From: Bilabrum cf. latius
Lineage: Eukaryota
Assembly: GCA_965178125.1 (NCBI GenBank)
Contig: OZ237765.1
Coordinates: 248,001-312,000 of the forward strand
DNA length: 64,000 nucleotides
Direction: 5' to 3'
Of this stretch, positions 515 to 63,343 are shown piece by piece. A program made the translations under genes and the position numbers. The number at the start of each line of letters is the position of its first letter. Positions within the stretch are counted from its first letter, which is position 1. Below the pieces are notes generated by a model, which was not told the DNA's origin, searched no databases, and worked only from the letters and a program-made list of their open reading frames with translations.

Positions 515-3500
515 TCACTGAGCGGGCGCCACCTGGGATGCCCTGACGGCCTGTGCCGAGCTGTCTTGCTCCGTACCGTACACCGCGTCCGATGAAGGCG
601 TGTTACCGTACTCCGCTTCACCGGCCTGGGCGAACTCCCCTCCTGCCCCTGCCGTGGCCATGTCATTGCCATCATCGTAAAGATCACCCGTTCCACTCAC
701 CGGAGGCGCGGCCGAATACCCGTTGGTGTCGACGTTGAAGTCCTGGTCCAGCGCTGCATCGATGTCCTTGCCAGAGGCAGGGGCACTGGGCTGTCCATCC
801 ATGTCAGAAGGGACCTGCGAGATTCAAAAAAGGGAGAGGGGGCAGGAGGAAGAGGAAGAAGGGTATGGAATGCAGCAATAGCAATAGCAGCAGCAGCAGC
901 AATAGCATTAGCCATGCAAGGCAAGGTAAGGCAAGCACACGCACGAGAGAAGGCGTCTCAGCGAGAGGCAACACAATGCAGTTGTTGAAGCTCACCACGC
1001 TCGCCTAGGGATCGGGTCCGCTGGTACCACCACCACCACCACCTCCCCCGCAGCACCCCTTGTTGCTCTCGTACTCGAGGTACTTCTCGTTGTCGGCGCG
1101 CTGCAGATAGTAGGGACCCCACAGCTCGTTGGGGAACCGCTTGTACCCCAGCACCATGGAGGGCCACCCGCACACGCACACGGCGAGGCCGATCATGTAC
1201 CACGATGCAACCATCCAATACACCCCGTTCATGAGTTCGCCGCAGAAGCCGTCCAGCAGGGGCTGCACCACCTCGTCTGCCAGCTTCTGGCAGCCCAAAT
1301 CCTCGGGAAGGTCGTCGTTCAAAAGCGGCAGCACCGCTGCCGTCATGTTGTCGAAGGTACCCCGGAGAAGCCTCGCTGCGGCGGGGCCGATGGTGTCCGT
1401 GTCGTTGAGGAAATCGTCGATGAATTCGTCCATGGTCTCGTTGATCTGGCTGGAGAAGGACCTGTACACGGAGGCGATGGCATGAGCCCCCGAGCCGTCA
1501 GTGTCCACGTCACCGCACGCGCCGAAGATGCCGGCTACCATGGCAGCTGGCCTGAACCGCACCGTAGTGTCACCCTGCTCCACCTCGCACAGGCCAAAGT
1601 CGTCGGCGGTGTCGGTGACCACGGTGCCGGAGAAAACCGACTCGCACAGCTGGGGCGCCGATCCAGCGGCGTACTATACGGCGACCGCGGGCATGGCACG
1701 GCACACGTCACTGCCCACCATGACCTGGGCGAAGAAAATACCAGCAAAGAAGAGGGATGGCACCATCAGCACGCACAGACACACCTGGTTGCAAGCCGTG
1801 CAGCACGCGTGCCACGAACCGCCGCACATCACCAGTGCAGGGATCAAAGCCATCACCGCGGCGAGCAGGGGGAAGGCATAGAGCGCAAGCCACAGACCCT
1901 CATACCCCGTGCTTACGGGGACACTGCCCCCTGAGGCCGTCTCGATGCTGTCCTCAGCCGCCTCCCGGATGGTGGCCTCGATGCAAGCGTTCGTCAGGCA
2001 CAGCGCATCGTTCTCCCAATCCTGACCGGAGGCGTCCCGCTGCACCGTGCCCCCCTGCCGCGCCTGGGATGGCGGCACCAGCTCAATCCCAAGCGACTCG
2101 CCGAAGTCTGCATCCTCGGGCTCGTCATCATCGGCGCCCGAGCTAGCGCTCGTCGAGGTGTCGACGTCGGAGCCCGTGTCCTGGGTTGCCGCATCGGCCA
2201 CAGTGGCGATCCAGTAGATGCCGCCCAGCTCCAGCGTGGAGTTGCTCTCGAACGCCTCCAGCACGGGGATGGCGAGGGAGATGCTGTCCGACTCGTCCTC
2301 CTCCTTGGCGAATCGAGCGCGCTCGGCGGGCGTTCGGAGTTCAGGCCGCAGTGCAGTGAGGCTCTTGGTCAGGGACAGGTCGATGTCCAGCCCCCCGTCG
2401 CCTCCCCCATCGATGGCGGACGAGGCCGTGGATGCGGTCTCGTTGAGCGTGTTGATGACGTTGTCCAGCACGCGACTCACTGCGAGCAGCACGGCCTTGG
2501 CCCCGCCTCCGTTCTGTGCCAGCTCTGCCCTAGACAAGGAACTGGAGTCCTGAGGGAGCTCGCTCTCGAGGTAATTCTGCATCACTGCGAGTCCACTGTC
2601 CACACCTCCCAGCGTGTCCACCGCCAGGTCACGGGCATCCGCCGTCTGGTTCTTGGCCTCATCGATGGTGTCAAACACCTCCACGGTGTTGTTCCTGGCC
2701 TCACCCAGTGAGCCGATCGAGTTGGACACCTCGTCGGCCACTTCATCCACCTCGCTCGTCTGCACGCTCATCGCCTAGCCCACCACGACCACCACGCCGG
2801 CCCGCAGGCCGTAGTTGGCGTCGCCGAACGCAAGCGGGTTGGATCCCGGGCTCGTCGGATCCTCCGCCACCATCGTCTGACCAATCTCGGCCACGTTGTC
2901 GGAGAACTTGGTGACCGAGGCAGGGTCGCTCTCGTTGGCCGCGGCCGCCGCCACGTCAGCGAGCGACGTCAGCCTCGGCTGCAGCGTGGGGATGTCTGTC
3001 TCGATCGTGGTCAGCTCGGACCCATCGATCACGTCCTCATAGTCAGCGGAGGCACGTGCGAACGCCACCAGCGCCGGCACGTCCACCGAGCACCGTACGA
3101 AGTCGGAGACGGTGCCGTTGCCAGACCCACTGGGCAGACCAGCCGAGTCCGCGACGGACTGGCACAGTGGGGCGGGATCCGCCGCGGTTGCGTTGTAGAG
3201 GTCTGTGCTGCAGATGGCGGTACCAGAGGCGGGTGGCTCGCCCGTCGAGTCCACCACGCACACGGGCACGGCGCGCTCGCATGCACCACCCGCGCCGCAG
3301 TCCGCAGCGTTGGTGCACGTGTCCCCGAGGGCAGACGCCGGGGCGGTGCATCGCCGGGCATCGTTCACCATACTGCTCACGGCAGTCTGCGCGGCTACCA
3401 GCGTGGTCTTGAGTTCCGCTTGCGCGGCGCCGATGGCCTGCGCAGCGCTCACCACAGCAGCCGAGGGAGCAGTCCCAGCGATCTGCGCCTCGTCCACGAC

Positions 3501-5880
3501 CGCCTGCACGGAGTTGTTGTAGTCGACCACCAGCGAGTCGTCCTGCTCCAGCATCTTCAGCTCGTCGATTGAGGTGTATACGTCCCGCAGCGCGTCTCCA
3601 AAGGTCCTTCGGGAGGAGGCACCAGGCACGGAGGCGTTCGCCGCAAGGATTTCTCGGATCTGCAGCAGCTGATCGATGAACGAGTCGATGGACCCACCCC
3701 CTGTTCCCTGGAGCAGCCCGATGGAGTCGTCCTGTGCCGTCACCAGATCATCCGTGGCGCTGGACAGCTGTCCCACAAGGTCCCCGCTGAGGGTCCTGTT
3801 CACCTCCACGATCTGCTCGTCCACGGTCTCAGACACGCCCAGCGTGGCGATCTCTCTCTCAAAATCACGGATTCCGTCCGCAATGCTGAACATGCAGTCG
3901 ATCACACGCCCGGACTGCGCGAGGATGCGGTCCCCGATGCGGTCCACGATCCCAAAGTCAGGGAAGGCACCGGTCAGGGTCGTGTTCAGGGCAATCAGGG
4001 AGTTTGCAACTCCGACGATATCGTCCAGCACGTTCTGCACCCGGGAATCGAACAAGTCCGCCCGCACGGCTACTGTGCGGTTGAGAGCGTCGTCCACCTG
4101 GTTGATCCGATCCAGGGCCAGCCTCGCACTGTTTGCCACAGGGGACACCATCGCCGGGGTGAAGGCGTTTACGGCCGACCTCAGGTTCCCCAGCCCGCGG
4201 CCGAGCACCTCGAAGTCAACGTCATCGTCCAGTGCACCGCTCAGAGCAAGCGTCAGGACGGCGGCACTTGCCCGGGCCGTCACGGCCGCCGTCGAATCGC
4301 CGTACTCGCTTGTGGTGAGAGCCGCACCAAAAGCATCGAAGGGCGCCACGGCCTGCCCACCCAGCACGCCCACCGCGGCTCCCGCGGTCACTGCCACCGT
4401 TCCGTTGGTGAACTCTCCGTCGTCGACCTCCTGAAGAAGGTTCGCCACAGCGGCAGCACCCTCGTCCTCGTCGGTCACGTCGCTCAGGTCCTCACCGAAC
4501 GACAGCGCGGCTGTCGCGGCGCCGTAGAGCCCTGCCGGTTCCGCAGTGGCGGGGCCGAGCCCGCTGATGAGAGTGCCGTTGAATTGCCCGGATTGCTGCG
4601 ACACTGCCGTCATGCTGGCGGTCAGAGAGTTGAGCCTTGGGATAGTCCCGTTGGGGGGTGCCTGTAGATCGTCTTTGATGTCCTCGATCAGCTCCAGGAC
4701 ACCGTCCACCAGGCCGGCGATCTGGTCGAACTCCGCGTCGGTGGGAAGCATGCTGATGGTCCCGTTGATCACGCAGCTGGCATCATCCCGGAGCTCCCCG
4801 ATGTCGATCACCTCGCCTGTGAAGAGGTTCCTGAAAGACTGGAGGAAGGGCGACACGGCCTCCTCGGCGACCGATTCCATCCGGTTGTTGATGGGCACCG
4901 ACAGGCCTTGGATCACCCTCGCCGGTCCGTTGGGTGCCTGGGAGATCGCCACGGCGGAATCCGTCACGCCCTCGATGCCCTCGGTCTGGCCCAGGATGAC
5001 GTACACCACCACGAACACGGCGAACACCACCGTGCACGCGCGGACGGCCCAGCGCTCCCAGCAGGGATAGACCTGCTCCTCCATCTGCGTCATGGTGGAG
5101 GCGGCCTTGGCAGACGCGCCCCCCATGTCCATCCCAGTCCCCGTGGAGCCGCTGCTGCCGCCGTCCGCGCCGTCGCTGTCAGCTGGCACGAATCCGCAGC
5201 AGGGCCGGCACAGGATGAACTCGTCCTCGCGCGCAGTTGGCACGCTCTCGCCGCACCAGCCGTATTCGCAGCAGCCGCAGCACTTGCAGATGCAGCAGCA
5301 CATGCCGCAGCGGCACACGCACAGGAGCAGGGCGAAGAGCGGCCCCACGATCGCGAAGAGAATGCCGAATACGGTGTAGGCTCCCACCGCCTGGCCGTAG
5401 GCGACCACTGAAGTAGACTCTGGACTTCCAACATTGCCGGTATCTGGCTCAACCTGCGCCACAAAAACGATGTCAAGGGGTGATTATGTCGAGAGATAAC
5501 GAGGAATTCAAGCAAACGCAAAGCTGCACGGCTAGCACGCGAACTCGCGCCTTTTTCATGACCCGTAACACTTGTGTGCGTAGTAACATGTCTTTGCGGG
5601 GCAAACATTAGCCATTCGGACTCGTGAGGGCCCAAAGCATACCCGCAGCGGGAACGGTCGCAGACTGTTCCTGAGGCTCAGCAAGCTGTGCTCGCTGACG
5701 GGCCCAGCGAGGCATACGCGCGATAGCTTCTCACAAAACTACATGCTTCGTAATCTTGTCCAACTTGATGAGTAGGACAGTCCAAGAGATCATAGTCGAC
5801 CAAATCAGCGGAGACGCTCTGACCAGCTGCATTTCTCGGCAAGCTGGAGAGGTGCTGAGCATGCGCCTGATCCTCCGTTG
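515..5880 (-). CDS. Prominin/tweety-like multi-pass membrane glycoprotein (5' end unresolved)
   Basis: ORFs 2775..5462, 1674..2771 and 1005..1622 join in frame through TAG at 2775, 1674 and 1005. Introns at 815..995 (GTGAGC...GCAG) and 5454..5734 (GTGAGA...GCAG) keep the frame, and the stop is TGA at 515. Topology: TM1 followed by a Cys-rich loop (CVCRCGMCCCICKCC), TM2, a very large extracellular region, TM3/TM4 ending GSDVC, a second loop, and TM5 (FCGELMNGVYWMVASWY...WPSMVLGYKRF). This resembles prominin. The signal-peptide-like ORF at 6172..6354 may be the first exon. Confidence 0.65.
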
Positions 5881-6565: not shown

Positions 6566-8266
6566 TCAAAAGCGCGATGTGTGCACCAACCCAGCCGTCA
6601 AGTCTGCCTTGGGGCCCTATGCCACTGCTCGTACGCTCATCATGTCTTTTTCGGTGCGGCGCAATCCCTTTTTCCGTCGCTCTTTCTGCTACTTTTCCGC
6701 AAGCAAGGGGGCCACAAACAAGCCGTGCACCACGGCGCCGGCGCCGCGCGGAGATCTCTTCCGTGCGGAACCGCCAACTGGACGGCGCTGCGTGAAACGG
6801 GCCCCGCGCCGCCGCCCGAACGCCGCCATTCGGTCGCCACTGTCGTTCGCTGCATCCATCAGGAGAGGCACCACTGCTGCGGCCGACCCCCGCTTCGATT
6901 CCAGAGACTGCCGCGGCGCATCTCCCGACCGAGCACGGGCGCCTGCTGCTCGAGCACTTGCTCCGAGCCATGCGTCATCGTGCTCGCTTCGGAGCCGCTG
7001 GAGCTCGTCGTACCCACGAGGCTGCGAGGTCGGGCCGGCGCCGCGCAGGCTTGCGGAGCCGGACCGCTGCAGCTGCGAAGATCCCGCCACAGCAGGCGAT
7101 CGGCCGCTGCGGCTGCCCCCCCTCACCGCGGCCTCGTCACTTGTCACACCCATGATCGCGCTCAGATCCAGGGAGGGCACCGGTCCGCGAGATGCTCGCT
7201 CGTGCGAAGCACCTGCTCGAGACACCTGCGATGCTCGCCCGGCAGCAACCGGGGAATCCCCGCCATCATTCGATTCCGAGTCGTGATCCCGGTCCCCGAA
7301 GGCCACGGACTCGCTGGCAAAACCGAAGGCGGTCTCGTCGGGCGATCGCGCTGCGCCCCGCGGCGATGATGATGCGGATGACGAAGCTCGCGCGGCGCGC
7401 CGTGTCACCGCGGGACCACCCCGACCTACAGGCATTGGGCCCAGATCGGATCCGCTCGCCCCGTATGGTGTGACGAGTGCGGACGGGGGAAGGTTCGCGA
7501 ACTCGTGCGCGCGATCGAGGGCTTCCCTCCTTGCCGCTTTGACCGCCCTCTTCCTTGTTCCCTGGACCAGGGCCGTCCGCCGGGCCTCTTTGTCCACGAC
7601 CGTGGAGATCTCCGTCCTCGTCATCCGCTTGGGGTCCTGAGACCTGGGCGGCATCGGCCGCACGAAGCGCGCGAGGGGCCCCAGGTGCGCCACCCCGCCC
7701 CACATGGCGCTCCGCGCCGCCGCGCTGGACTCGCCGTGCGCGCCCGCTGCGTGCCGAACCGCCCGCATGAGAGCTGTGGGGCGCCTGGGATTGATACCCT
7801 CTGCCGAGTAGCCGTCACCGAGCGCGGCATCCAGTGTGACGAGTGTGTCCTGGCCTGCGGCGCTGGCTGCCTTTGACTTCTGCTGCGCGGATTCCACGTT
7901 CCGCTGCCTGCGCGGAGGCAGGTCGCCCTCGACGGCTCCTTCCTCGGTGTGACGAGTGTCATCTGCACCTTCCCCACCCCACTCGTCACCCTCGCCTTCC
8001 GCTTTCCCCGCCCCATCGCTATCTCCGTCCTCCAGATCCGTGCCTTGGCCTTCATCGTCCTCCTCGTCCTCGTCCTCGTCCTCGTCCACAGCGGGGGGCA
8101 GCGCTTCATCCAGATCGGACCCGTCTGGAGCTCCAGCACCACCGTGCAATGAACCACGGGCCATCCGAGAAGCTGCGCCCCGCGCTTCCTCCGAATCCTC
8201 GGTTGCAACCACCCGGGGCTGCAGGGACATGTAGCCGATGACTCTGCTCGATGATCCACGCCGTCC

Positions 8267-8315
<49 letters not shown>

Positions 8316-11300
8316 ATGGACCCGTTTTTACCCCCCAGAGTCCCATCACCAGAGCCAGACCGACCTCCTCCCAGCGAGGATTGCACGGCCTGCCTGGCGT
8401 ACTCAGCGGCGTTCTCCTCCTCTCGATCGTCGTAGAACGCGGCTTCGCAAGCGCTCGCCACGGCGATCCCGAGGGGCACGGCATGATGCACCTACCCCTC
8501 CACGTCTTCGCCCGCATGTCCACCCGTCGCACTCATCACACTTCCACTAGCAGTGCTGATCCGCCTCATAGACATCCTGGACCGGAGCTTCTCCATCCTC
8601 GCGTTGGTCGCAAACGGGTTGTCCAGGGCAGACGACCCCCCGGCATAGACGTCCCCTGCAGCCTGCGCCTCGTGCGCCTGGCTCGCTCCACTCGTCACAC
8701 CGTTGTTCCCCGAACTGCTCCGCTGCGAGAGGTCAGCACCTAGCGCTAGATGGGTAAGTGCTCTGTGGATTGCCTAGGCCCCTGGCACCTAGCCCTGCCC
8801 CTGTCCCTGGCCTCGTTGATTGTGCTGCCTGTGCGTAGCAGACTCTGTCTTCGGACCGCGATGTGCTGGGGGTCTCGATCCTGGGGGCTGGGGGCCAGAA
8901 CCAGGCGGCTTGGGCCCTGCGATGGAGCCGTCGTGGTTCCTGCGGCCACCCGTGGGCACGGCAGTCGGGATGCGGGCCAGCTTGGAGCCGGTCGAGTCCT
9001 TCGTCAGGTCGATGGAGGAGCCGATGGCGCTACGCTGCAAAAAAGAACGCATCGGGTTTCGACCCCGCGCGAGGGTTCCGTCCACCGCGTCGTGCTGTAC
9101 CCCCGCGCTCGCTCCCTTGTGCCTGCCTCCGCGCCTGGTTCTCGAAGAGGACTTGACCTGTCTCACTGCACCGGCCTGCTCTGCGATGGCCCTGAGTGCC
9201 TCGGTTTCCTCCTGTGCAATCCTGACGAACGGCAGGCGAACCTTCCGTAGGTCGAACACGCTGGCAGAGGCAAGGGAGGATTCCTCCTCCTCCAAAGCAG
9301 CCACAACGTCCACGTCAGGGCTACCAGGATTCTACTCCACGCCACCGTCGGGGGAATCGCCGCCACCATCGATCCCAAACGAGTCTGACTTGTCGTCTTC
9401 ACCCCCATGCAGTGCAGCCTCCGTGGCCGAAGAGAGCGAGGGCGGTGCCAGCAGCCCGTGGAGCTCCAATGACGCCTGCAGCAGCTCACCAGCCCCGCCA
9501 ACACCGCCCCCATCCCCGTGCACGCCACTCCCATGGCCCCCATTCACACCCACATAATCCTCCCCAGACCCCGGCAGCACAGTCACCGCCTGAGCGTCCT
9601 CTTCGTCGAGCCCGTCCCCAACGGAAGAATCCGCCAGCGAGCCGCCCCCTCTCGGTCGTGGCGGACCCCCGAGAGCCCTGGGAATGGAGGCACTCCCGGT
9701 CCCACCCACTGAAGACATGGTGCCAGCACCAGAACGCCCGCTGCTGATCGCGCCCCCGTCGCTGTCGCTCGAGTCGTCGTCCTCGTCTGTGCTGGCGTTA
9801 AAGCTCCTTGCTCCGTCCGAGTCGTCGCTGCTGCTGTCAGACGCTTGGTCGTGCACCTTGTTTGGCTCACTGACTCGGATGGGGCCGGGCCGACCGTCCT
9901 GTCTGACCCCTTCCGCAGGTTGACTACCGGCCCCCCTGCGCCTGGCCTCACGCCGGGCCTGCTTCCGCTTCTTCCGCCGCGCCGCTTTGGCCACCCTGGC
10001 GCGCTCGTCCACGTCATAGGCAGCCACTTGTTCCCTGAGAAGCACCGACGGAAGCAGCATCTCGGGCCTATCAGAGGCGAGTGCCTCGTCGAGCTGTCTG
10101 ATCCTTGGGCTGAGCATCGTGATGTTGACGGCACGCCTCAGCTCTCTCTCCCTAGCGCTGATGCTGCCAGCACCACCGACATCGCCGGCGCCCTTGCCAG
10201 CGGCGGACCGAGATTGCAACGCACTGCGATGCTTTGGCGCCAGTGCCCCGCCCTGCTTGCTTTTGCTGCCGCCCGGCGGACCGGCATCCTCATCACTGTC
10301 GGAATCGATCCCGCGCGCCCCGCCTCCAAACCCGACGCCCTTGCCCCTTCCGAACACCCTCGCGGACAGCTCACCCTCGTTGACCTTCGCCGCAGCGCCC
10401 CTCAGCTGCCTCGCCCTCTTCTCGATCCGCTCCTGCACCCTGTCCAGCGCCTGCACCTCCTGCTGCTGCTTCTAGGCCAGGCGGCCGGTGCGCGTGTCAA
10501 CCCCGATGCCGCGGCGCCGGGCCGCGCGCGGTCCCATCGCGTTGAACGCGAGCTGCCGCCTGGACGCCGCGGCACCGAAAATGTGCTCCTGCGTCTCCAC
10601 GAGTGCCCGTCGACTGGGCTGCGCGAACGTGAGCTGCAGCAGGTGACCCATGACCCTGCCCAGCCGTGCCGCCACGCCGATCACTGCCGCGCTCTGAACA
10701 GAAGCCCTCGCTTCCGAGCACAGCAGTGCGCTGCGCTTGTTCGCTGCTTCCTGCGCCAGCCGACCCACGTCGGGAAGAGGCTGCAGCAGAGTGTCTCGCG
10801 CGTGCTGGGCAGATAGAACGGCCTGTGAGTGGCGGCGGCCGCCAGCCCCCACTCCTGCTCCCGGGGCCCCCACAACTGCGGCGGCGCGTGCCGGCATACC
10901 GCTGTGCTTGCGGGCGTGCTCCGTGAGCTTGGCAAGCCGGGGGCCGCGGAATACGTCACCGGGGGGCAGAGCCGTGGGCGCCTTGGGGCGGTGTCGAGGG
11001 GCGCCGCGCGCGCTTGCGGAACCATCTCGAGGTTTCGCCTCGACGCCGCCGCCGCGCGCCGAGGATGTCGTTGCTCGTGCGGCACGGTTTCCGCTAGCCT
11101 GGGCACTGGATGCACTGCTGCGTGCTCTGGTGCGGATGGCAGCGCCACGTTCTTCACCGGCGTGCTGTCCAGGCTGTTCCCTGGCGTGATTCCGCTGTTC
11201 CTCAGCCTCCTCCAACAACCTGCGGGCCATCTCCGCTGCGGCCATGAGGGCCTTGGTACCAAGGGGACGGGCGAGGAACCGGATGTGCTCCGACCGGAGG

Positions 11301-14300: not shown

Positions 14301-15505
14301 GCAGCGGCTGCTGCGCCCTCCATGGCCGCCCTGACCTGCTTCAGCACATCTTCCCTCTGCTCCTCCACCTCCTTTTGTTCCCTGGCATGCTCTACCGCCC
14401 TATGGGCTCGCGCCCGCCGCATGAGATCCCGCTCGAACGCAACCGCAGCAGGGGAGCCTCTGGGTGCGGGCTCGCCTGCCGCGGCTACAGTGGCCTGTCC
14501 CGCCTGTTTCAATCCAAAAGGGCTCGTGGACTCCCCTGGAGTATCGCCATGCTCTTCACCACTGCCTTTGTGGAAGAAGGGACGCCTCGTGCGGGGGTCA
14601 AACCTGGGTGACTTGCCGGTGGGTCGCTGGCCGATCGTGGCTGCGGCTTCCAGCATGTGCTTAGGCGGTGGCGGCACGGTCCCCCCGAATGCAGTACGCT
14701 TTGAATTGCCGTGCCTGATGGCCGTGCGGGAGTGCAGTGCAGCTGCCCCTGCCCTACCCCTGTGTGCCTCGCTTCGGGCGAGAGGCCCTTGCCTCTGCTG
14801 GCCAAGCCGCGAGCCGTCCACCAGCACGCCAGCAGAACCCGCAAGCAGCTGCTCCTGCGACGACGTCTCCCCCATTCGAACCAGGCCTCCACTCGTCACA
14901 CCAGGGGGCAGCATGCCGGCTGCGGATGGTTGTGCGAGTGCAGAGGGGGAGCCGGGCTGCCTGGGGACCACCAGGCCGGCCGCACTGGACGCGAACGCTT
15001 TGCGGGCCGGAGCAGATTTCGATTCTGTCCCGCGCGAGCCGCGTTCCGATCGGGTGCGAGCCAGTTCCAGCTCGGCTTGCATGGCTGCTCGTCGTGCTGC
15101 CTCCTTCGGCTGCCCAGGTGCTGTTGACATTGCCAGCGTGCTTGCTCGATGAACCGCACCCTGCTTCAGTAAAAAGTCAGCTTGCCTCTCTCTTTGTAGG
15201 CGAATGAACTGCTTTGCTCTATCAAGGCAACCTGCGTCCTATCGAGTCTGCTGCACGAGCAAGGAATGCAGTGTACCGCCCCGCAGCATGGCGAACCTAC
15301 CGCCGGCTCCAAAGGTGGATAAGGCGTCTTGCGTACCCTGCGCTACCTTTTGAGATACGTTTGCTGACCGCGGGCCTCCGCTGAATGAACCGTCGTCGGC
15401 GCCGGTAATAGCCATGGACGGTCGAAGCAACTCGTCCTCTGACATCAAATCGATCCGGCTCAATTCCATATCTTTAATCGATGACTCCAATTCTGCCGCC
15501 GACAT
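6566..15505 (-). CDS. Very large (~2979 aa) low-complexity protein with two cyclic-nucleotide-binding (CNB) domains
   Basis: A single frame runs from ATG 15505 to TGA 6566 through 12 TAGs (15239, 14279, 14108, 12968, 11450, 10472, 9332, 8789, 8774, 8492, 6689, 6617). CNB-like segments: WLRQRSPHFAMLS...VYFVLSGQ...IKSGDTLG and YLQRLPLFDGW...IYDAGEDVDAVCLCLSGSIEL...VEPGSWFGEESVL. Confidence 0.8.
8265..8315. repeat. (CCTGCT)n coding hexamer microsatellite encoding an SR dipeptide tract
   Basis: Direct tandem repeat; translates as SRSRSRSR... in the minus-strand gene. Confidence 0.9.
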
Positions 15506-15763
15506 GGCTCACACAACCAAACAAATTATTGAGACCAACAGAAAAAATCTAGAAAAAGTATTTGCTTTGTCGCTATAATGCGGCATGATGGTCTACCCAA
15601 CGGAAAGCCGTTCGGGCTCCGGATCGCGACAGCTGAGCAGCGGTCGCACAGAAAAACACATTTCGCCTTCAAGTTGGTCGCTTCACATACGTACCAAACC
15701 AGATGATACTACAAAGATCCCCAATCGGACCACGCGCTTTCATTCACAAACTCACTCAATCAC

Positions 15764-17982: not shown

Positions 17983-18019
<37 letters not shown>

Positions 18020-19444: not shown

Positions 19445-19602
19445 TGCAAGAATTGTGGGGCCACTTGCCACAAACGGCAGAAAACCAGATTTTGCTCAAT
19501 ATACGCGCAACCTCTGAACTGCATGAACGCGGCAGCTTGGAAGGCTAATTCTGGCTGCTTGAAAAGAATCTACGAGTCTAAACGTGTATTTAAAAGCACT
19601 AC

Positions 19603-22277: not shown

Positions 22278-22333
22278 TACTATATTGTGATATCACCAAA
22301 GGCAATGCTTGCCTCTTGTACCCTAGGTCAGGA

Positions 22334-42259: not shown

Positions 42260-42433
42260 GGATAGTGGCGCGTCACGATGGCCATGGCCGTACAGGACTC
42301 GGGATAGTCTCGCATGTGTGTTAATTGGTTGTACAGAATCCTGCGCCGGACGTGTTTAATCTTCATCTTGAATTTAGGTTGCAACCGATTTTTTCCACGT
42401 CATGGAGGCCATTGAATTGCGTACTAAGACGCA

Positions 42434-49703: not shown

Positions 49704-49888
49704 GTAGCTAACCAATTGTAAACACGGATCTGATCGGAAAAGGCTCCAAAGCCCGTCGCGAGAGTGGAACGCCTCAACGCCAACAAGAGCGACTTGCGGT
49801 CGCAACCGGCGGTCGCAGGTTGGGTGTTCACCTTGCTCCTCGGCATACTGCCCTCTTACAGTTTAAAATAATGCGCATAATCGTATAA

Positions 49889-52447: not shown

Positions 52448-53018
52448 CCGTTTTAATCGTTTTGGAATTTGGACTACCCAACCCCAGTTCACAATGAGGT
52501 CGTTGAGTGGCTGATCCGCTGCAGGCTGCAGCAGCGTGACGTGACGGCCTACAGTGCGTTGCATATTGCACAGTGGCGCGTCGTCTCGCGCTGCGATGGC
52601 TCGCACCTGCAGCTGCCGTTGTCCATGGGCAATCCCTCAGTACTCGGCTGCTTGGTCACGACATCTACACTCTTGGCTTAGAGTAAGCTCTTGATACAAG
52701 CTGCACGTGGTGCCCATTGGACCCGCTGGACCACCTTGTCCACCATTACATTCCACGAGTACGGGGAGTGTCCATGAGCTGGTAGGTCAGACGTAGATCT
52801 CTTATATTTTGCAACGATAAGAAAGCTGCTTTCCAACTCGGCCTCGAGCACCCTGAACATCGCTGGATGGATGGTCGCCATGGGCCTACCCCACATGATG
52901 CGATTCGTAATAATTGGTCGCAAGACACGCACCCGGCAGACCCGCCGGTCAATACACGATGTAGGCGACCTAGCTTACTTCTACGACTGTGCAGCCGAAC
53001 AAAGTAGTAGGCCGTTTT

Positions 53019-55784
53019 ATGTCACGCCTCTTGCTAGTTGTAGCTATGAGCGTTCCAGTCGTGGCGGCGACGGTTTCAATCGGATCTAGCAGAGTGTCAA
53101 GGATTGAGATTGATAGAAATCGTCAGTACCGGATAAAGCAGTATCAATTTAAAAGTGGCATAGATGGTGTACGGCAAAGCACGAGCGTAGCTTGGGAGCC
53201 GCGTGATCTCGAGGTGAGCTTCATGCTGGCTGGCACCAGCCAGTTGACGATCCCGTTCGGGCGGGATGCACGGGGTTAGCGGGTATCGGACTCAATAAGC
53301 ATATTTTTAGATGGGATTCCTATCATTGGGCGGGATAAAGCCACCAGTTGCGTAGCAGAAAGGGGCCGTACCAGATGTAGCACCACGGTCCCATGGCAGA
53401 CAATGCGTCCGGGGGAGCACGTTGTGGCGGTGTATGCAGTACTTGACGAAACGAGATCAGGACAGCCAACATTGCACGCATCTCCAGCACATCGAATCCG
53501 GGTCGTCCCCCCTCCCGAACCCGACCAGGCACTCGGGCAGTACAGGAGCATGTGGCCAGCCGTCCCCCCTGCCCAGCCTTCCAGCCCATCCCATGGCGAT
53601 ACAATGGAAGTCACGGACGGGCTGCAACAGTATCGGCTGTACCCGATCGACATGCTCCCTCGATCTGCCGCATTCAACACGTCCCTGTTCCGGGCAGGCA
53701 CCTACGTCACTCTCAACGACGTGATCGCCGCCCAGGCCATGCAAAACATCTCCAAGGCTGCAGGCGAGCACGCCGTGCACACGGTGGAGCAGGTGCTCCG
53801 CTCCGACTCGCTCACCGTTGAAAACGCCACCAAGAAATACGTCCTCAACGACACGATCGTGTACCCCGACCTCCAGTACATGGTGCACAGCAGCTTTTAC
53901 CAGCACCAGCCAGTCCTCGGGTACCCCTGCTTCTACACGGCTAGACAGGGGCAGCCCGGGTACATCCCCGACTGCCCGGGGGTTGCAGCCGCCGCAGCTC
54001 GCAAGGCCGAGTGGATGGTCCAGTCGGGCCTGCAGTTTGCGCTGTCGGATGGAACCAACCGGGGCTCCTGGCCATCGAGTGCTAGCGATGTGCTCCAAAT
54101 GAGACCGGCCGAGGTGTTCGCAGCGCAGTGGGCTGCACTCAGGGAGCAAGGGACCGCCACTCCCGATTTTGGCGTGTGGGCCGCCATCAACGGCAACTGG
54201 ACGCTGTACCAGCAGTACCTGGATCGGATCTACAACGACCCCAAGCTGGGGTCTCTGGTCCCCCGCGCCAGGGATGGTCGCAAGGCGTTCTGGACCGTCA
54301 ACACAATCCGGCCGTGGGAGCGCCTGTCTATCTTCCACCCACCAACAACACAAGAGACGCAGCCGCACGCTCCTTTAGGGATCGGATCAGAAGATCGGAT
54401 CGGGATCGGATCAAAGGGCGCGGGCAGGGTATACCTGGACATCAACCGCACGTCCGCCGAGCACCTTGCCTCAAACGGCGGACGCAACGACGTGCTGGTG
54501 CAGTTCACCTGGCACGCCGAGAACGTGCCCGCCTGGTGGAACGCGAGTCTCAAGGAGAGGCAGGCCTGGACCTACCTGGGCGCCTGCTAGGACACCCAGG
54601 TGGCCCCCGGGGTGCCTTGCGACACTCCCGTGCAGAACGCCACGGCCCTGGGCAAGGTCATGACGGTCAGCGCCAACACCGTTCTAGACTCTGTTCCCTT
54701 TGCGTCTCCTGGGAAGCGCCACGGGCTCGCCCTAAAGTCCCAGTTCCTCTCCGTCTTCCGGCAGCTGGCGACTCCCAGGGAACAAGGAGGCGGCCTGGAT
54801 TTCCTCTTCCTGCCCTCGTGGAACGAATTCAGCGTGATCGCGCAGACGAACCCGTGGAACGTTCCGAACCCCTACTTTTAGGCCATGGGTCTGAAACAGT
54901 TCGATGCGCGCAAGAACGTCATGTTCGTGGACGGGTACGCAGAGGCGAAGAGCAGGACGATTGAGCCCTCGGTGGACGACGGCGGTCGCATCATGGAGGT
55001 GCTCGCCTCCTGCCTCAGGGTCGCAAGAGCGGTGGAGCTGGGGGGCATCGTCGCGCAGGCCGCCATGGGTACCGGCGGTGTGACGAGTGCTGCCGGTTGC
55101 AACGTTGCAGGGGAACCCTGCTGCGAGCACGGCCCTCTGGAGCTGCTCACCGGGGTGTGGTCCTTCGAGCGCTGGGTCAACGGCACCGATGGTGTGACGA
55201 GTGCACACGGTGCGAAGAGCGGGACGCTGCTGGGGGCGGCTCTGACCTCGGAGCCGCGGGAGGCAGGGGCGATCAACGGCACGGAGGGCTGGTCGGAGGT
55301 ATGCGCGTGGTACGGCAGCTTCGGGCAGTTCTGCCGGGACGAAGGGTACATGAGGGAGCAGCCCTATGATCGGATCAAGCGGGGGCCGCTCATGCTCCTG
55401 CCAAACTCAACGGACACTTCGCAAGTCCCATTCCCGACGGTGGCGCTGGTGCGTTGCAAAGGAGCTGCTGCGATGGGCGGAGGTGAGCGCGGAGCAAGTG
55501 CTCCGGCATCGAATATCCCGAGCACGGGCTTCGATTTCGGCCTATAGGGGAATCCCTGGCCACTGGGATGCCGCGGGGGGCAGGAGGACGAGGACTATGT
55601 GCTGGGGATTGCTGCGGCGGACCGGTCTGCGGGCTCTGCATTTCCGAGGCCCTTGCGCAAGTGCGTGCGTAATTCCGTACCGGGGCTGAGTATTGATGGT
55701 CCCGTGGCAGTAACCTATCACGTCATTGACGGCACATGCCTTGGCGGCGACCAGGAAGCTGGCTTGCTTGGGTTCGTGTTTTGA
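53019..55784 (+). CDS. Secreted protein with a putative glycoside-hydrolase-like (GH99/GH71-type) barrel, ~921 aa
   Basis: Signal peptide MSRLLLVVAMSVPVVAA. Five ORFs join via TAG 53277, 54588, 54879 and 55545. FLPSWNEF...TIEPSVDDGG recalls the WNE...IEP motif of GH99-like enzymes (weak family call). Stop TGA. Confidence 0.6.
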
Positions 55785-55985
55785 GTCGAATGAGCGATCC
55801 ATTGCGGCATCACACAAGCTGTACATTCTTCCTGGTAAATTAGTAAGATGTACATCAGGCGAAATCTATGCTCGAAATGGATGCACCGTGAGTGCTAAGA
55901 TTCGTCTCGACCGCTGGTACCGTAAACCGGAATAACAATCGGCCACGGGCGCGTGCATGGAGTGCTTCAGTTTGCTCCAAAAAGC

Positions 55986-57761
55986 ATGCCGCTTCGAGTA
56001 CCTCTCAACAATGTGTAGCTGGAAAGCCTTGCCGAATAGTATGGTACGCCATTCCAGCTGTACGACGAAGTGGGGATCAGGGCGAACGTGCGCAAGCTCC
56101 TGAGCTCCTTCCGAGAGAAGTTTCCCAGGTTTGAGCAGTTCTTCGCGGTAAAGGCACTGCCGAACCCAGCGATCTGCAAGCTTCTTATTGATGAGGGCTG
56201 TGGCCTCGATTGCTCGTCCACATCGGAGCTCTGGCTAGCTCGCAAGCTGGGGGTGCCGGGAAACAAAGTCATGTACACCAGCAACTACACATCGGCCAAG
56301 GACCTGCAGTTCGCCGCCGAGTACGGCGTGATCATCAACCTAGATGACGCTACTCTGGTTGACACCCTGGCTGGCGTGTCCAGCCCGTTCCCAGAGACGA
56401 TTTGCTTCCGCGTGAACCCCGGCCTCGGCCGCACGGACAGCAGCACCAAGTCCAACGTGCTCGGAGGGCCCGACGCGAAGTTTGGCGTTCCCGTGGAGCA
56501 GGTCGTCGACGCCTACCGCAACGCCAAGGCCAAAGGCGCCAAGCGGTTCGGCATCCACATGATGACGGGCTCGTGCGTGCTCAAGGACGAGTACTGGAGC
56601 GAGACGGTCACGAGGCTCTTCCAGGTCATGCAGGAGGCCAGGGAGCAGCTCGGGATCGAGTTCGATTTCGTCAACATCGGGGGCGGGCTTGGCATCCCCT
56701 ACAAGCCCGAGGACGCCACCAAGACGGTGGACCTCGAAGGCCTCTCCGCCAGAATCAGGGCGACGGTGGACGCGGCGCTCGAGGCATCCGGAGCCGGAAA
56801 GGCGGCCGCGGCCGGTTCCGCTGCGGCACCGCGGACACTCCCGGCGCTGTACATGGAGAATGGGCGGTTCATCACGGGCCCGTACGGCTGGCTGGTCACC
56901 CGCTGCAACGCGACCAAGGAGGCCTTCGGGCAGCGGTACTGCGGGGTGGACGCGTGCATGGCTCATCTGATGCGGCCGGGCATGTACGGTTCCTACCACC
57001 ACATCACCGTGCCCGGTAGGGAGGGCAGGGTCACTGTGGCGAAGCTTCCCTCCGGCCCGGGGAGGGAGGCCGACGGCGGTGGTGACGCTGACGGGTGTGA
57101 CGAGTGCGAGCGTGCCCCCCTGAACGTGGTGGGTACCCTCTGCGAGAACAACGACTGGTTCGCCAAGGAGAGGAGCCTCCCGACCGCTGCCGGCAGGGGG
57201 GACCTCTTTGTGATTCACGACACGGGGGCGCACGCGCACTCCATGGGCTTCCAGTACAACGGCAAGCTGAGGGCGCCCGAGCTGCTGATCCGATCCGGTT
57301 CCGCAGGCGAGGCGCCGCGCGTGGAGCAGATCCGCTCCCGCGAAAAGGTAGAGGTGCTGTTCGCGGACACGAGCATTCCGAGCGACATGGGGGAGCAGCC
57401 CGACTTCGGCAGGCCCGTGGCACCCGCAGTCTCCAGCGTGCTGGAAGGCCTCAACATGACGCTGGGTGCGCGGCCGCTCGGCGCGGCCGCGGGGGCCTAG
57501 GGTCCATTGGATGCGAGTGACCCGTTTTGGTGCGCACCCGCGAAAGCCAGTGAGGGCTGGGGTGGTTTCTCGTGGGCCGTCCCCGCGGTGGTGAGCGTGG
57601 CGCTTGGCGTGGGCCTAGTGGCTGGCCTGGCCCTGTCGAGCCCGTCGGGGACCAAGGCGAGCCTCGCTCGGGCGGTGTCCGGGGAGGGAAGACAGGCGGG
57701 TGCCGCTGGGAGCACCTCGGCAGCGCTGCACCGGTTCGGCAAGGGAATGAAGAGGCAGTGA
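55986..57761 (+). CDS. lysA: Diaminopimelate decarboxylase with a C-terminal hydrophobic extension, ~591 aa
   Basis: LAE*YGTPFQLYDE, FFAVKA (PLP Lys), KFG, HMMTGS, NIGGGLG, ENGRFI, VVGTLCENND, DTGAH..SMGFQYNG. TAG at 56016, 56037 and 57498. Stop TGA. Confidence 0.93.
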
Positions 57762-60310: not shown

Positions 60311-63300
60311 TCAGGGCACGACAAGCCCACCCTCCGCGAACAGGAACGCGTTGTCACCGCAAGGACCCGACTGCACGGTGTAGTTCCCGGGCATGACCCT
60401 GAAAACCGCGTCATCATCCACCATGGCTAAGTCGCTCGCGACGATGGGCACCTGCACCTCCTTGCTCTCACCGCCGGACAAACGCACTTTGGTGAAACCC
60501 CCGAGGCGCATCCAGAAACGGGCGGTGAGCGTGACCCCCGGGGGGTCATTCAGGAAGACCTGCACCGTCTCCGCTTGGTCCTACCCCACACCGTCCTGCT
60601 CCCGGGTCACGGTAACGGTCGCAACCGCCATGACGTCATCGTGGTGGTCCTCCCAGTCCTGGGGTGTGACCCACGACGATGCCTGGGCTAGCGCGCTGCG
60701 GTTCGGCTGGATCCGGATGGACTCGTAGGTCACGCTCGAGTAGCCCACGCCGTGCCCGAAGGGGACAAGGGGTGTGCCCGTCCCCACTCGGTTGACGTAC
60801 TCTGCGTACGCCCTGCCTCCTGGAGGGTTGATCACCTTGCTCCTGTGCCCCTCCGCAACAAAGTCGCCCACGATCCGGCTGAGCCACGGCGCCGCGCTGG
60901 AGTGCACTGCACCCACGGTAGAGGGCCAGGCGGCCGGCTCCCTCCCAGAGGGGCTGAACGCGCCCACAAGAGCCTCCGCCGCAGCCACGGCCCCGCGCTC
61001 ACCGGGCCTCCACAGGTCGAGCACAGCCCCGACGGGAGACTTGTCGCTGTCCCAGAACAGGGTGTTGTTCGAGGTTTCCGCCCCAAAGGTCAGCGGCCGG
61101 CCGTGTACCAGCACCATGGCGACCGGGGTGGTGAACGCGGCCAAAGCGTCGGCCGGCAGGTCCGCGGCCTGCTCAACGGACATATCGAGGCTGTCAGCAG
61201 CCCTCTGCACCCCTTGCTTGGTGATGTTCCCTGCGATTGCCTCCAGGAGCTGCAGCTGTCCCCCGGGAAGGTCCAGCGTGGTCACGTCCTGGTTCTCGTC
61301 GCACGTCTGTAAAGTGTCGCCCAGCACCAGCACCACGGCATCAGAGGACAGGGCGGACTGCACCGCGGCAGGGATCAGGTCCAGGCCGAGACCCTTGTGC
61401 ACGTCGATGTGGCACCCCTACTGCACCGAAAGCGCGGCGCCAGTTCCGTTCAGAGCGCCCTCCATGGCCTCGTCGAAGAGGGGCACGTGCCTGCGGTCGC
61501 TGTCGAGGGAGTACGGCCCCAGCAGCGCGGCTCGCTGGAGGCACCAGTCCGGAGTGGGGTCGCCGAGCTTGTTGCCTGGGTCATGATTTGGCTCCGAGTC
61601 GCCGTCGTCGGTGAAGCAGGAGGCCAGAGGGCCGATGAGTGCGACCGATTGCGCCCCAATTCGAGCAGCGGAGAGGGAGCTGCCTGCGATGGGCACTGGC
61701 CGCTGTGCCCCTACCTGCCCGGGTGCCTGCTGCTGGTGCTCATACTGTTCCTGTGTCTTCGTCTGATGGGCGAGGTGTAGGAGCTGCTGCTTGCGAGCGG
61801 CCCAAGGGGGCAGGTGACCAGCGTCTGCGTCCACCGGCGCATCAGGACTCAGCCGAAGAGTGCCCGCCCGAAGCGCGCTCTGGTGCTGCGCGTGACCCGC
61901 GCTGTCCAAGGCGCCCCCAGCGGCGGGGACGATGGGGAGGGTGTGACGAGTATTCCGGATCATGGTGACGGCCTGACGCGCCGCCTCCGCGTTGATGGCG
62001 TCGTGCTCGGGGCTCCCAATGTCCTTGAGCCTCGCTGGATCCGCCATGGGGTGGTCAAAGAGGCCCGTGGCGAACTTGAGGGAGAGCACACGGCAGACGG
62101 ACAGGTTGATCTGCTCCATGGTGACCAGCCCAGCGTCCAGCGCGGGCTGCAGGTAGGCGTACCCCTGGTACTCCCAGGGGGCACCACCTCCCTGTAGGTC
62201 CTGATCCACGCCAGCCCGCAGCGCGGCTGCCGCAGCGTGGGCCATGTCGGGTACAACTCGGAATGGTACGAGGTTGTCGATGTTGCGCTCGTCTGTGATG
62301 ACCATGCCCAAGCCGGAACTGCCGCCCAGCCGCAGCTGGCCGCGCAGCTGATCCGTCAGCATCTTGCGGTTTGCGTGCATTGGGATCCCGTTGGTGGTCT
62401 GGTGGCTGGCCATGACGGCCCTTCCCCCCGCCCAAGCGAACCTTCGCCAGGGCTTCAGGAACACCTCCTGCACCGTCTGGTTGGTCGTCTCGGCAGCAGC
62501 AGCATTCAGGCCCCCGGCAGCGTCACCGTACCCCGCGAAGTGCTTGCCCAGCGCGGCGATGGTGCTGTTGACGCTCGGGAGGTACCCCTATGCCCCCAGG
62601 GGAGTGTTGGGGCCCTGCAGCCCCTCCACCACTGCGGTTGCAACGTGCGCTGACAGGGTTGGGTTGGGGCTGTACCCCTCGCTGAAGCGGCCCATGCGGG
62701 CGTCCATGAAGAGGTTGATTACAGGGGCGTACCCAGTGTCTGCAAGCGAGCGAGCGAGCGAGTGTGTGAATCGGGGGAGAGAGGACTGGGGCTCAGATAT
62801 CGTGCATACGTGAAGACGTTAATGAGGAAAACATAGATGCTTACCGGCCCCGATGGCTCTTGCTTCCGTGGCAATGGCCTGCGCGATGCTCTTCCACAGC
62901 GTCCGGTTCCAGCTCGAGGCCTGGCCTGTGGGTGCGGGAAACACGACACCTCCCCAGGTGCCCGAGTGCAACGTCTCTGACTGAAATGAAACGGGGATTT
63001 TAAGCCTAGCCGACTTCAGTACGGCCTCCTGCACGCGATTGCGCTGGTACTGAATCTGCTCGATGGTGGCATTCACCTTCCACTGGCCAGTCATCCAATG
63101 CATTGACGCAGCCCCGACCGACGTGTTGCTGAACTTGTCAATAATTTCTTGGGCTGGAAGCGTGTAAACACTCCAAAGCTGTTTAATTTTCTCCTCTGTT
63201 GTCATCCCCTCCATCAAATCTGCTACGCGCTCTTGAATAGGCCTTGACGCATCCATATAAGCCGGATTGACACTTGCAGCGGCATCTGCCATCGCTACTG

Positions 63301-63343
63301 AACACCCAAAGAAGGCTAAGCATGCGCCCGCATGCAGAGTCAT
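60311..63343 (-). CDS. Glycoside hydrolase family 3 beta-glucosidase/xylosidase, secreted, ~975 aa
   Basis: RVADLMEGMTTEEKI, RLKIP..SETLHS, FPAPTGQASSWN, DARMGRFSEGY, KHFAGYG, VITDE (nucleophile Asp), PFGHGVGYS, and a C-terminal Fn3-like ETVQVF..LGGFTKV. Intron 62740..62844. TAG at 62588, 61418 and 60581. Stop TGA. Confidence 0.93.

What the first reader, a model, noticed from the sequence alone, without database searches (positions are those of the whole stretch)
515..63343. Non-standard nuclear genetic code: UAG is read as glutamine throughout the window
Seen in sequence: about 70 in-frame TAG codons in 17 of the 19 main genes. Each time the frame continues into the next part of the same protein, with no shared flanking context, including a tandem TAG-TAG at 31801. 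Positions matching Gln in family patterns I recall: PhyH LSAE*VKF..GY (26439), LysA LAE*YGTP (56037), [21 protein letters not shown] (35709) and EISF*IP (35985). TAG also continues Gln-containing repeats: GQGQGQG* (8789), AQS*GQAQSQSQ (16958), QQQQQQE* (29266) and QADE*AGE*AGE* (43484-43508). Inference: genome-wide UAG->Gln reassignment rather than pseudogenisation or programmed readthrough. The intron style and gene content suggest a heterotrophic protist (GC-rich and unlike ciliates), and the lineage cannot be identified by eye.
Basis: partly seen in the sequence, partly recalled or inferred. Interest (0 to 1): 0.95.

Follow-up and report, generated by a model that had tools for sequence, protein, structure and literature searches.

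The report
Stop codon UAG encodes glutamine here
In this GC-rich piece of a protist nuclear genome the usual stop codon UAG sits inside almost every gene and is read as glutamine, a rare kind of genetic-code change seen here in a lineage where I found no report of it.

Summary
The genes are real and expressed. Spliced, RNA-like contigs from two other studies cover 20 of the 28 TAGs in the stretch I laid, with no base differences. One 7.6-kb ABCA transcript carries all six of its TAGs.

TAG means Gln. At 12 alignable TAG columns of ABCA, PhyH and GH3, Gln is the best amino acid. The columns behave like CAG columns, and 0 of 20,000 random non-Gln column sets match them. In an orthologous metagenome contig (~70% identity), 7 of 11 TAG sites pair with CAG or CAA.

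TAA is never in frame, against about 16 expected here and about 13 in the relative. 18 genes end in TGA and one in TAA. So this is a table-15-like code: UAG=Gln, with UAA and UGA as stops.

The organism is not Amoeboaphelidium (40% GC against 62%), and its lineage stays unresolved. No tRNA-Gln(CUA) or eRF1 could be examined, because no genome is held. My ten literature searches found no report of this code in such a lineage. I file it as a new member of a known kind.

The parts
807..5483 (-). 1559-codon ORF of unknown family, ends TGA. TAG at 2775, 1674 and 1005.
   Evidence: GC3 0.81
6569..15508 (-). 2980-codon ORF with a weak cNMP-binding match, ends TGA. 12 TAG: 15239, 14279, 14108, 12968, 11450, 10472, 9332, 8789, 8774, 8492, 6689, 6617.
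   Evidence: TAG 10472 pairs with Q in the relative P0351, 88% identity. TAG 8789 fills the Q slot of a (Gly-Gln)n repeat.
15767..19495 (-). 1243-codon ORF, low-complexity protein, ends TGA. 6 TAG: 18749, 18035, 17498, 16994, 16958, 15866.
19606..22292 (-). GH59 (galactocerebrosidase-like) gene in two overlapping ORFs. TAG at 21996 and 21142, both inside the Pfam matches.
22019..24514 (+). 832-codon ORF of unknown family, ends TGA. TAG at 23063, 23096, 23108 and 24434.
24770..26365 (-). 531-codon ORF of unknown family. It is the only gene ending in TAA (24770-24772). TAG at 26267 (possibly 5' leader), 26078 and 25562.
   Evidence: (GC3 falls from 0.73 to 0.54 after the TAA)
26274..27413 (+). 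PhyH-family dioxygenase, first ATG near 26394, ends TGA. TAG at 26439, 26517, 26886 and 26967.
   Evidence: Q in 74 of 76 and 73 of 76 homologues at 26886 and 26967. An RNA-like contig covers 26378-27638 with 0 differences.
27775..30705 (-). 976-codon ORF, ends TGA. TAG at 30502, 30436, 30157, 29266 and 28684.
30859..32540 (+). ZIP transporter gene with a GT..AG intron at 31936-32144. TAG at 31297, 31639, 31783 and tandem 31801/31804.
   Evidence: (the joint is seen in X5 and X7)
32871..40666 (+). ABCA-type full transporter mRNA with introns at 33022-33115 and 33265-33357 and stop TGA at 40365-40367. TAG at 35163, 35709, 35985, 38889, 38964 and 39405.
   Evidence: X5 record 13, 7609 nt, 0 differences
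41024..42256 (+). RCC1-repeat protein ORF, with an intron joint 41019>41120 at its start. TAG at 41573.
42428..43648 (+). 407-codon ORF. TAG at 42740, 42887, 43484, 43496, 43508 and 43631. Three of them lie in a 12-nt tandem unit GCA GGC GAG TAG.
44448..45608 (+). NudC homologue, no TAG, ends TGA.
45959..46483 (-). Ribosomal protein eL21, last exon. No TAG, stop TGA at 45959-45961, poly(A)-like loose end at 45797. Its bin has the highest depth of the laid stretch in run X5.
46980..52636 (-). Two tandem paralogues, 46980-49862 and 49892-52636. TAG at 49458, 48312, 50753 and 50036.
   Evidence: TAG 49458 aligns with Q of the paralogue in a conserved block, and TAG 50036 aligns with H
52914..55781 (+). 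956-codon ORF of unknown family. TAG at 52962 and 52971 (possibly leader), 53277, 54588, 54879 and 55545.
55926..57761 (+). Diaminopimelate decarboxylase (LysA) with a C-terminal hydrophobic tail. TAG at 56016, 56037 and 57498.
60314..63349 (-). GH3 beta-glucosidase-like gene in two exons. The intron holds an in-frame TAA. TAG at 62588, 61418 and 60581.

Best explanation
This organism's nuclear genes use UAG as an ordinary glutamine codon, about 9% of Gln codons here. UGA, and probably UAA, terminate translation. That matches NCBI translation table 15 and the code described for Iotanema spirale. Shown here: TAG is in frame in bona fide, transcribed, spliced genes; it sits where homologues have Gln; TAA is absent from coding frames; and a divergent relative does the same. 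Inferred, not shown: decoding is by a cognate tRNA-Gln with anticodon CUA, derived from tRNA-Gln(CUG), together with an eRF1 whose N-domain no longer recognises UAG but keeps UAA and UGA. Decoding must be efficient, because one gene has 12 TAGs and most genes have several.
For: (1) Real genes. Pfam domains span or follow TAGs: the ABCA NBDs and R1 domain, PhyH, GH59, and the GH3 Fn3-like domain after the last TAG. The tail after the last TAG keeps coding-type GC3 of 0.65-0.85 in the 16 ORFs whose tail is at least 16 codons long; the one shorter tail, 5 codons, reads 1.0.
(2) RNA. Contigs of runs X5 and X7, from two studies other than the best DNA holder, lack three or four GT..AG introns and show a poly-T loose end. 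Their listed pieces cover 20 of 28 (X5) and 15 of 28 (X7) TAGs in 26200-46199 with 0 other letters. DNA-like runs X1 and X8 also show no differences.
(3) Amino acid. Profiles were built from homologues only. With --enone, Gln is best over 12 TAG columns by 23.2 nats over Arg and 29.7 over Glu; with default hmmbuild the margin is 2.2 nats over Lys. As a positive control the same procedure decodes 58 of 61 (--enone) and 53 of 61 (default) sense codons correctly. Mean P(Q) is 0.311 at TAG columns, 0.269 at CAG columns and 0.051 at GAG columns. 0 of 20,000 random non-Gln column sets reach the TAG margin, and CAG column samples have a median margin of 22.2. PhyH columns 26886 and 26967 are Q in 74 of 76 and 73 of 76 homologues. 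ABCA 35985 is Q in 96 of 120, and 35709 is Q in 11 of the 13 homologues most identical to the query.
(4) Relatives. In orthologue L001, 6 of 9 TAGs pair with the window's CAG, and 1 of the 2 window TAGs pairs with CAA. Relative P0351 has Q at TAG 10472. The paralogue has Q at TAG 49458.
(5) TAA. There are 0 in-frame TAA against 16.2 expected in the window and 12.8 expected in L001 if TAA:TAG followed CAA:CAG. Extensions across boundary TAAs are short, low in GC3, or intronic.
Against: At window TAG 62588, two close relatives (P0348 and the L001/P0219 contig) have Glu (GAG). One paralogue pair gives His. ABCA columns 38889, 38964 and 39405 are R, T/S and L in the nearest orthologues. Only 12 columns from 3 genes could be scored, and with default HMM priors the margin is small (2.2 nats). 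The tool labels X5 'RNA? (probably DNA)' and X7 'RNA?', so their RNA nature is my inference from excised introns and a poly-T end. Only one gene ends in TAA, so its role as a terminator is weakly shown. No tRNA gene lies in the window, and no genome is held, so the mechanism is untested. Only 64 kb was seen.
Confidence: 0.9

Rival explanations
1. UAG has a dual meaning: Gln inside genes but also a terminator in some contexts, as in Condylostoma, karyorelict or Blastocrithidia-type ambiguous codes.
For: Some TAGs lie close to the ORF end: 5, 16, 26 and 33 codons before TGA in four genes. The last TAG of LysA (57498) lies beyond the region homologous to solved structures. In these cases termination at TAG cannot be excluded.
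Against: No gene in the window needs TAG as its terminator; all 19 reach TGA (18) or TAA (1). GC3 stays coding-like after the last TAG. Conserved sequence follows late TAGs in GH3 (Fn3-like domain), in ABCA (R1 domain) and in paralogue 49892-52636.
Confidence: 0.07
2. Both UAA and UAG are reassigned to Gln (table 6, as in many ciliates, Hexamita, ulvophytes and Amoeboaphelidium), and TAA is merely rare because the genome is GC-rich.
For: TAA is rare everywhere in the window: 51-82 per frame against 132-162 TAG. 8 of 19 ORFs are bounded upstream by TAA.
Against: There are 0 in-frame TAA against 16.2 expected in the window. In the less GC-biased relative, 0 against 12.8 expected, with CAA 17 and CAG 12. 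Extensions upstream of boundary TAAs are 4-44 codons long with GC3 0.25-0.69. The one long extension (GH3) crosses an intron. One gene ends at TAA with a fall in GC3.
Confidence: 0.03
3. UAG is a sense codon for another amino acid, such as Glu (as in peritrichs) or Leu (as in the rhizarian exLh).
For: Glu stands at TAG 62588 in two relatives. Glu or Asp is commonest at PhyH 26439 and 26517. Leu stands at ABCA 39405 in the closest orthologues.
Against: Glu is 29.7 nats worse than Gln with --enone and 2.35 nats worse with default priors. Leu is not among the best eight. The near-invariant Gln columns give Glu a probability of 0.001 or less. Mean P(E) at TAG columns is 0.079, like CAG columns (0.086) and unlike GAG columns (0.398).
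Confidence: 0.02
4. The TAGs are not translated at all: pseudogenes, assembly or base-calling errors, RNA editing of UAG to CAG, or small introns that remove them.
For: None found. Long open frames can arise by chance in GC-rich DNA.
Against: Four runs from four studies show no base differences over the stretch, and RNA-like contigs keep the TAGs while removing only the GT..AG introns. An independent 99%-identical ORF (P0212) ends exactly at TAG 60581. The orthologue carries TAGs at other positions. 17 of 19 genes would have to be dead, yet codon bias and domain integrity are intact.
Confidence: 0.01

Closest known systems
Iotanema spirale (Fornicata) nuclear code: UAG=Gln, with UAA and UGA as stops (Panek et al. 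2017, PMC5304391; abstract and passages read)
   Same: Only UAG is reassigned, and to glutamine. UAA stays out of coding frames.
   Different: Iotanema is an anaerobic metamonad known from a transcriptome, and UAA is its main terminator. Here the genome is 62% GC, TGA ends 18 of 19 genes, and the best hits are not metamonad. The eRF1 T32G change reported for Iotanema could not be looked for here.
UAG-only reassignment to Gln in Protocruzia tuzeti and two phyllopharyngean ciliate lineages (McGowan et al. 2024, PMC11687900; Discussion passages read)
   Same: The codon reassignment is the same, and it is decoupled from UAA.
   Different: Those are ciliates. Nothing here looks ciliate-like: the genome is GC-rich, the genes are long with conventional GT..AG introns of 93-209 nt, and homologue hits are mixed across stramenopile, dinoflagellate and holozoan sequences.
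UAR=Gln codes (NCBI table 6): many ciliates, Hexamita, Streblomastix, ulvophytes, Amoeboaphelidium protococcarum
   Same: A stop codon is reassigned to Gln, presumably through a mutated tRNA-Gln.
   Different: TAA is not a sense codon here. Amoeboaphelidium genomes are 40.5% and 39.9% GC (PMC10608142, Table 1, read) against 62% here, and the window encodes a DAP-pathway LysA.
Genetic code 15 in crAss-like and other phages (TAG=Gln; PMC9523058, abstract seen in a search listing)
   Same: The codon table is the same.
   Different: Those are phage genomes with suppressor tRNAs in a bacterial host. This is eukaryotic nuclear DNA with spliceosomal introns and polyadenylated transcripts.

Membership tests
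Table-15-type nuclear code (UAG=Gln; UAA and UGA stop) | UAG occurs in frame inside genuine, expressed protein-coding genes | tested here: met
   73 TAG in 17 of 19 genes. Spliced RNA-like contigs carry 20 of the 28 TAGs in the laid stretch unchanged. Pfam domains span TAGs.
Table-15-type nuclear code (UAG=Gln; UAA and UGA stop) | UAG positions correspond to glutamine in homologues | tested here: met
   Gln is best over 12 columns: 23.2 nats with --enone, 2.2 nats with default priors. 0 of 20,000 random column sets match. 7 of 11 TAG sites pair with CAG or CAA in orthologue L001.
Table-15-type nuclear code (UAG=Gln; UAA and UGA stop) | UAA is not a sense codon | tested here: met
   0 in-frame TAA against 16.2 expected in the window and 12.8 expected in L001. 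The sample is small: about 17.8k and 0.7k codons.
Table-15-type nuclear code (UAG=Gln; UAA and UGA stop) | UAA and UGA serve as terminators | tested here: inconclusive
   UGA ends 18 of 19 genes. For ABCA, PhyH and eL21, the ends of RNA-like contigs or a poly(A)-like end lie 160-300 nt downstream. UAA ends only one gene.
Table-15-type nuclear code (UAG=Gln; UAA and UGA stop) | A cognate tRNA-Gln(CUA) is encoded | not testable with these tools
   There is no tRNA in the window and no genome is held.
Table-15-type nuclear code (UAG=Gln; UAA and UGA stop) | eRF1 N-domain altered so that UAG is no longer recognised | not testable with these tools
Table 6 code (UAA and UAG both Gln) | In-frame UAA at Gln positions | tested here: not met
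Ambiguous stop/sense codes (Condylostoma, Blastocrithidia type) | The reassigned codon also terminates genes near their 3' ends | tested here: inconclusive
   No gene requires TAG as its stop. Four genes have a TAG 5-33 codons before TGA.
Amoeboaphelidium (known UAR=Gln algal parasite) as the source organism | Genome composition of about 40% GC | tested here: not met
   The window is 56-66% GC in 4-kb windows, against 40.5% and 39.9% (PMC10608142, Table 1).
Pyrrolysine-type UAG decoding | UAG at Lys/Pyl-type positions of a few specialised enzymes | tested here: not met
   TAG is spread over 17 of 19 unrelated genes, and Lys is 30.9 nats worse than Gln with --enone.

The most novel reading that the evidence does not exclude
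This is an independent, so far unreported origin of a UAG-only reassignment to Gln in a GC-rich, non-ciliate, non-metamonad eukaryote clade. The clade holds at least two species about 30% apart in protein sequence. TGA is the main terminator and UAA is kept as a stop. That would give a natural case of eRF1 discriminating UAG from UAA in a high-GC genome, where a simple AT-pressure or codon-disappearance route to reassignment is hard to invoke.
Probability: 0.45. Interest if true: 0.8.

Novelty: new member of a known kind. Interest (0 to 1): 0.7.

Why it matters
Nuclear genetic-code changes are known from only a few dozen lineages. Cases where UAG and UAA have different meanings are rarer still: Iotanema, a rhizarian, Scotinosphaera and a few ciliates (PMC11687900, Discussion passages).

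A further lineage, GC-rich and apparently present in DNA and RNA data sets of several studies, would add an independent data point on two questions. One is how eRF1 loses UAG recognition but keeps UAA. The other is whether GC content constrains which stop codon is captured.

Practically, any annotation of this genome or its relatives under the standard code will be badly wrong. 17 of 19 genes here would be truncated or split. Public protein sets already hold such fragments: P0212 ends at a TAG, and the relative's GH3 is split into P0219 and P0245 at a TAG.

Tried and rejected
Tools and data that were unavailable or gave nothing:
- Whole genome: not held. No genome-wide Codetta, tRNA, eRF1 or 18S search was possible.
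- tRNA scan and Rfam scan of the window: 0 hits each.
- No listed holder is on record as RNA. I inferred the RNA nature of X5 and X7 from joints only.
- The 8 TAGs of the laid stretch outside the listed X5 and X7 pieces (RCC1, the 407-codon ORF, and 26267) have no listed cover. 136 pieces were not shown, so this is no evidence either way.

Tests that proved weak:
- ORF length as evidence: weak, because a TGA-sense control also gives long ORFs.
- A 'shorter' protein search with the 2980-aa protein gave only 1 hit among 8000 candidates.
- LysA TAG columns are variable in three solved structures.
- GH3 TAG 60581 falls in an insert state and was not scored.

Attempts to name the lineage:
- Cluster look-ups gave few names.
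- The ABCA FastTree nests the window in a clade with a bicosoecid, a Symbiodinium-labelled protein and eukprot transcriptomes, with oomycetes outside. The mixture-model run timed out.
- The best named GH3 relatives are a choanoflagellate and a sponge.
- eL21 scores best against the 164-aa eL21 chains, two of them with Arabidopsis-style names; which organisms the entries come from I take from memory.
- A NudC atlas look-up was uninformative.
- Together these conflict, so I name no lineage.
- The Amoeboaphelidium idea was rejected on GC content.

Literature:
- Searches for the transcriptome accession prefixes found nothing.
- The aphelid genome paper (Curr Biol 2022) is not held.
- Supplements were not consulted.
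- My ten literature searches found no report of UAG=Gln in a stramenopile or any comparable GC-rich protist. Subscription journals are mostly outside that library.

Full report
What is there. The window is 56-66% GC and carries 19 recognisable genes on both strands. Read with TAA and TGA as the only stops, the coding frames are 372-2980 codons long and show GC3 of 0.58-0.87. The genes are:
- an ABCA-type full ABC transporter, a diaminopimelate decarboxylase, a PhyH-family dioxygenase and a GH59 glycosidase;
- a ZIP transporter and an RCC1-repeat protein;
- NudC and a GH3 glycosidase, and ribosomal protein eL21;
- several long low-complexity proteins.
The introns mapped by contig joints are conventional GT..AG introns of 93-209 nt. 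This is eukaryotic nuclear DNA.

Check of the observation. I count 73 in-frame TAGs in 17 of 19 genes, and only NudC and eL21 lack them. The two off-frames of the same ORFs hold 313 and 274 TGA and 41 and 45 TAA, while the coding frame holds none of either and 74 TAG. One caution: open-frame length alone is weak evidence in DNA this GC-rich. Reading TGA as sense also gives frames up to 1920 codons, mostly antisense to real genes. So I rested the case on other evidence.

The TAGs are in the mRNA. Eight public runs hold at least half of the searched stretch's sampled words, and a ninth holds a small share. I laid four of them, from four studies, on 26200-46199. Contigs of X5 and X7 lack the introns 31936-32144, 33022-33115, 33265-33357 and 41020-41119. 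Their pieces begin and end at gene borders, and one has a poly-T loose end at 45797. I therefore take them to be cDNA, although the tool only guesses 'RNA?' and adds 'probably DNA' for X5. One X5 contig of 7609 nt covers the ABCA message from 32871 to 40666 with no differing letter, and so carries all six TAGs. The listed X5 pieces cover 20 of the 28 TAGs in the stretch, and the X7 pieces cover 15. No run showed any other letter, insertion or deletion. Editing, splicing-out and assembly error are thereby excluded for these sites.

Which amino acid. I translated TAG as X and collected 120 ABCA, 76 PhyH and 150 GH3 homologues.
- Four columns are clear. PhyH 26886 is Q in 74 of 76 and PhyH 26967 in 73 of 76. 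ABCA 35985 is Q in 96 of 120, and ABCA 35709 is Q in 11 of the 13 homologues most identical to the query, with L or Q overall.
- The other eight scored columns are variable. They include R, T/S and L in the nearest ABCA orthologues and D/E/Q in PhyH.
- With profiles built from the homologues alone, Gln is the best reading of the 12 scorable columns. The margin is 23.2 nats over Arg and 29.7 over Glu without entropy weighting, and 2.2 nats over Lys with default priors.
- The same procedure decodes 58 of 61 (or 53 of 61) ordinary sense codons correctly.
- TAG columns resemble CAG columns. Mean P(Q) is 0.311 against 0.269, compared with 0.051 at GAG columns.
- None of 20,000 random sets of non-Gln columns reached the observed margin, which lies at the median of CAG-column samples.
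- TAG also fills the Q slot of (Gly-Gln)n and Gln-Ser repeats at the nucleotide level.
- TAG aligns with Q in a conserved block of the tandem paralogue.

Relatives.
- A 2444-nt metagenome contig (L001) holds the GH3 orthologue at about 70% identity, with the intron at the corresponding place.
- It has nine in-frame TAGs of its own. Six pair with CAG in the window, and the others pair with GAG, CAC and GAC.
- Of the two window TAGs in the aligned part, one pairs with CAA and one with GAG. That makes 7 of 11 Gln pairings, the same rate at which the window's CAG codons pair with a Gln codon (23 of 35).
- A closer relative (P0351, 88% identity) has Q at TAG 10472.
- Against this, P0348 (in P0219's 90%-identity cluster; about 95% identical to the window by my reading) and L001 both have Glu at TAG 62588. 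This is compatible with a Glu-to-Gln change but is not positive evidence.
- Public ORF calls made under the standard code break at these codons. P0212 ends at TAG 60581. P0219 ends where L001 has TAG and the window has CAG.
- The reassignment is therefore shared by a clade, not by one strain.

TAA and TGA.
- No TAA lies in a coding frame. If TAA were Gln in the CAA:CAG proportion, 16.2 would be expected in the window. In L001, 12.8 would be expected, because CAA (17) outnumbers CAG (12) there.
- Frames do not continue as coding sequence across boundary TAAs. The one long apparent extension, in GH3, crosses an intron.
- TGA ends 18 genes.
- TAA ends one gene, with a fall in GC3 behind it.
- The code is thus UAG=Gln with UGA, and probably UAA, as stops.
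- Whether UAG can also terminate in some contexts cannot be excluded for four genes with a TAG 5-33 codons before TGA. Conserved sequence follows late TAGs in GH3, ABCA and one paralogue.

Who is it.
- It is not Amoeboaphelidium, the algal parasite with a UAR=Gln code. Its genomes are about 40% GC (PMC10608142, Table 1), and the window encodes a DAP-pathway LysA.
- In an ABCA FastTree the window sits in a clade with a bicosoecid, a Symbiodinium-labelled protein and unnamed marine sequences, with oomycetes outside.
- The best named GH3 relatives are a choanoflagellate and a sponge.
- eL21 scores highest against plant-type entries (the organism assignments there are partly from memory).
- These signals conflict, so I leave the lineage open.

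Mechanism (inferred). By analogy with Tetrahymena tRNA-Gln(CUA), which reads UAG but not UAA, and with the eRF1 changes proposed for Iotanema and the rhizarian exLh (PMC5304391, passages read), I expect two components. One is a tRNA-Gln(CUA) derived from tRNA-Gln(CUG). The other is an eRF1 that has lost UAG recognition. With up to 12 TAGs per gene, decoding must be near-complete.

Known or new. UAG-only reassignment to Gln is an established code variant (Iotanema, Protocruzia, two phyllopharyngean lineages; PMC11687900). My ten full-text searches found no report of it in a stramenopile or any comparable GC-rich non-ciliate protist. That library lacks most subscription journals, supplements were closed, and the data sets date from 2025. 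I therefore file it as a new member of a known kind.

Noticed in passing
window 58325-58355 and 60100-60130: A perfect 31-nt inverted repeat, with a second 25-nt pair at 84%, flanks a 1.7-kb AT-richer stretch that has no convincing ORF. It lies in the gene-free gap between LysA and GH3 and could be a non-autonomous DNA transposon with terminal inverted repeats.
   Followed up: partly
window 46980-49862 and 49892-52636 (- strand): Two tandem paralogous genes (961 and 915 codons) encode proteins with a conserved N-terminal domain, several predicted hydrophobic segments, a Lys/Glu-rich middle and a conserved C-terminus. Neither has a Pfam match.
   Followed up: partly
window about 20150-20400 (- strand), inside the GH59 gene: A run of about 37 Gly-Ala dipeptides, from a GC-rich microsatellite, interrupts the second GH59 ORF. 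The two GH59 ORFs overlap in different frames at 21069-21198, so an unmapped intron or frame change lies there.
   Followed up: no
window 26274-27413: The nearest homologues of the PhyH-family gene are 41-48% identical proteins. The few that carry names are from Gemmatimonadota and Planctomycetota metagenome bins, so the gene may have come from bacteria.
   Followed up: no
window 55926-57761: The diaminopimelate decarboxylase has no N-terminal extension but carries a tail of about 130 residues with a hydrophobic segment. This suggests a non-plastid, possibly membrane-anchored enzyme.
   Followed up: no
L001 1-2444: The relative's GH3 gene uses TAG for 9 of its 38 Gln codons (24%), against about 9% in the window. 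Its contig is 57% GC. TAG usage thus differs widely within the clade.
   Followed up: yes
window 45797-46483 (- strand): The eL21 gene's bin has by far the highest contig depth in run X5 (1248, against 28-238 for the other bins). It contains no TAG, and neither does NudC. This fits avoidance of the reassigned codon in highly expressed genes, but with two genes it is only a hint.
   Followed up: no
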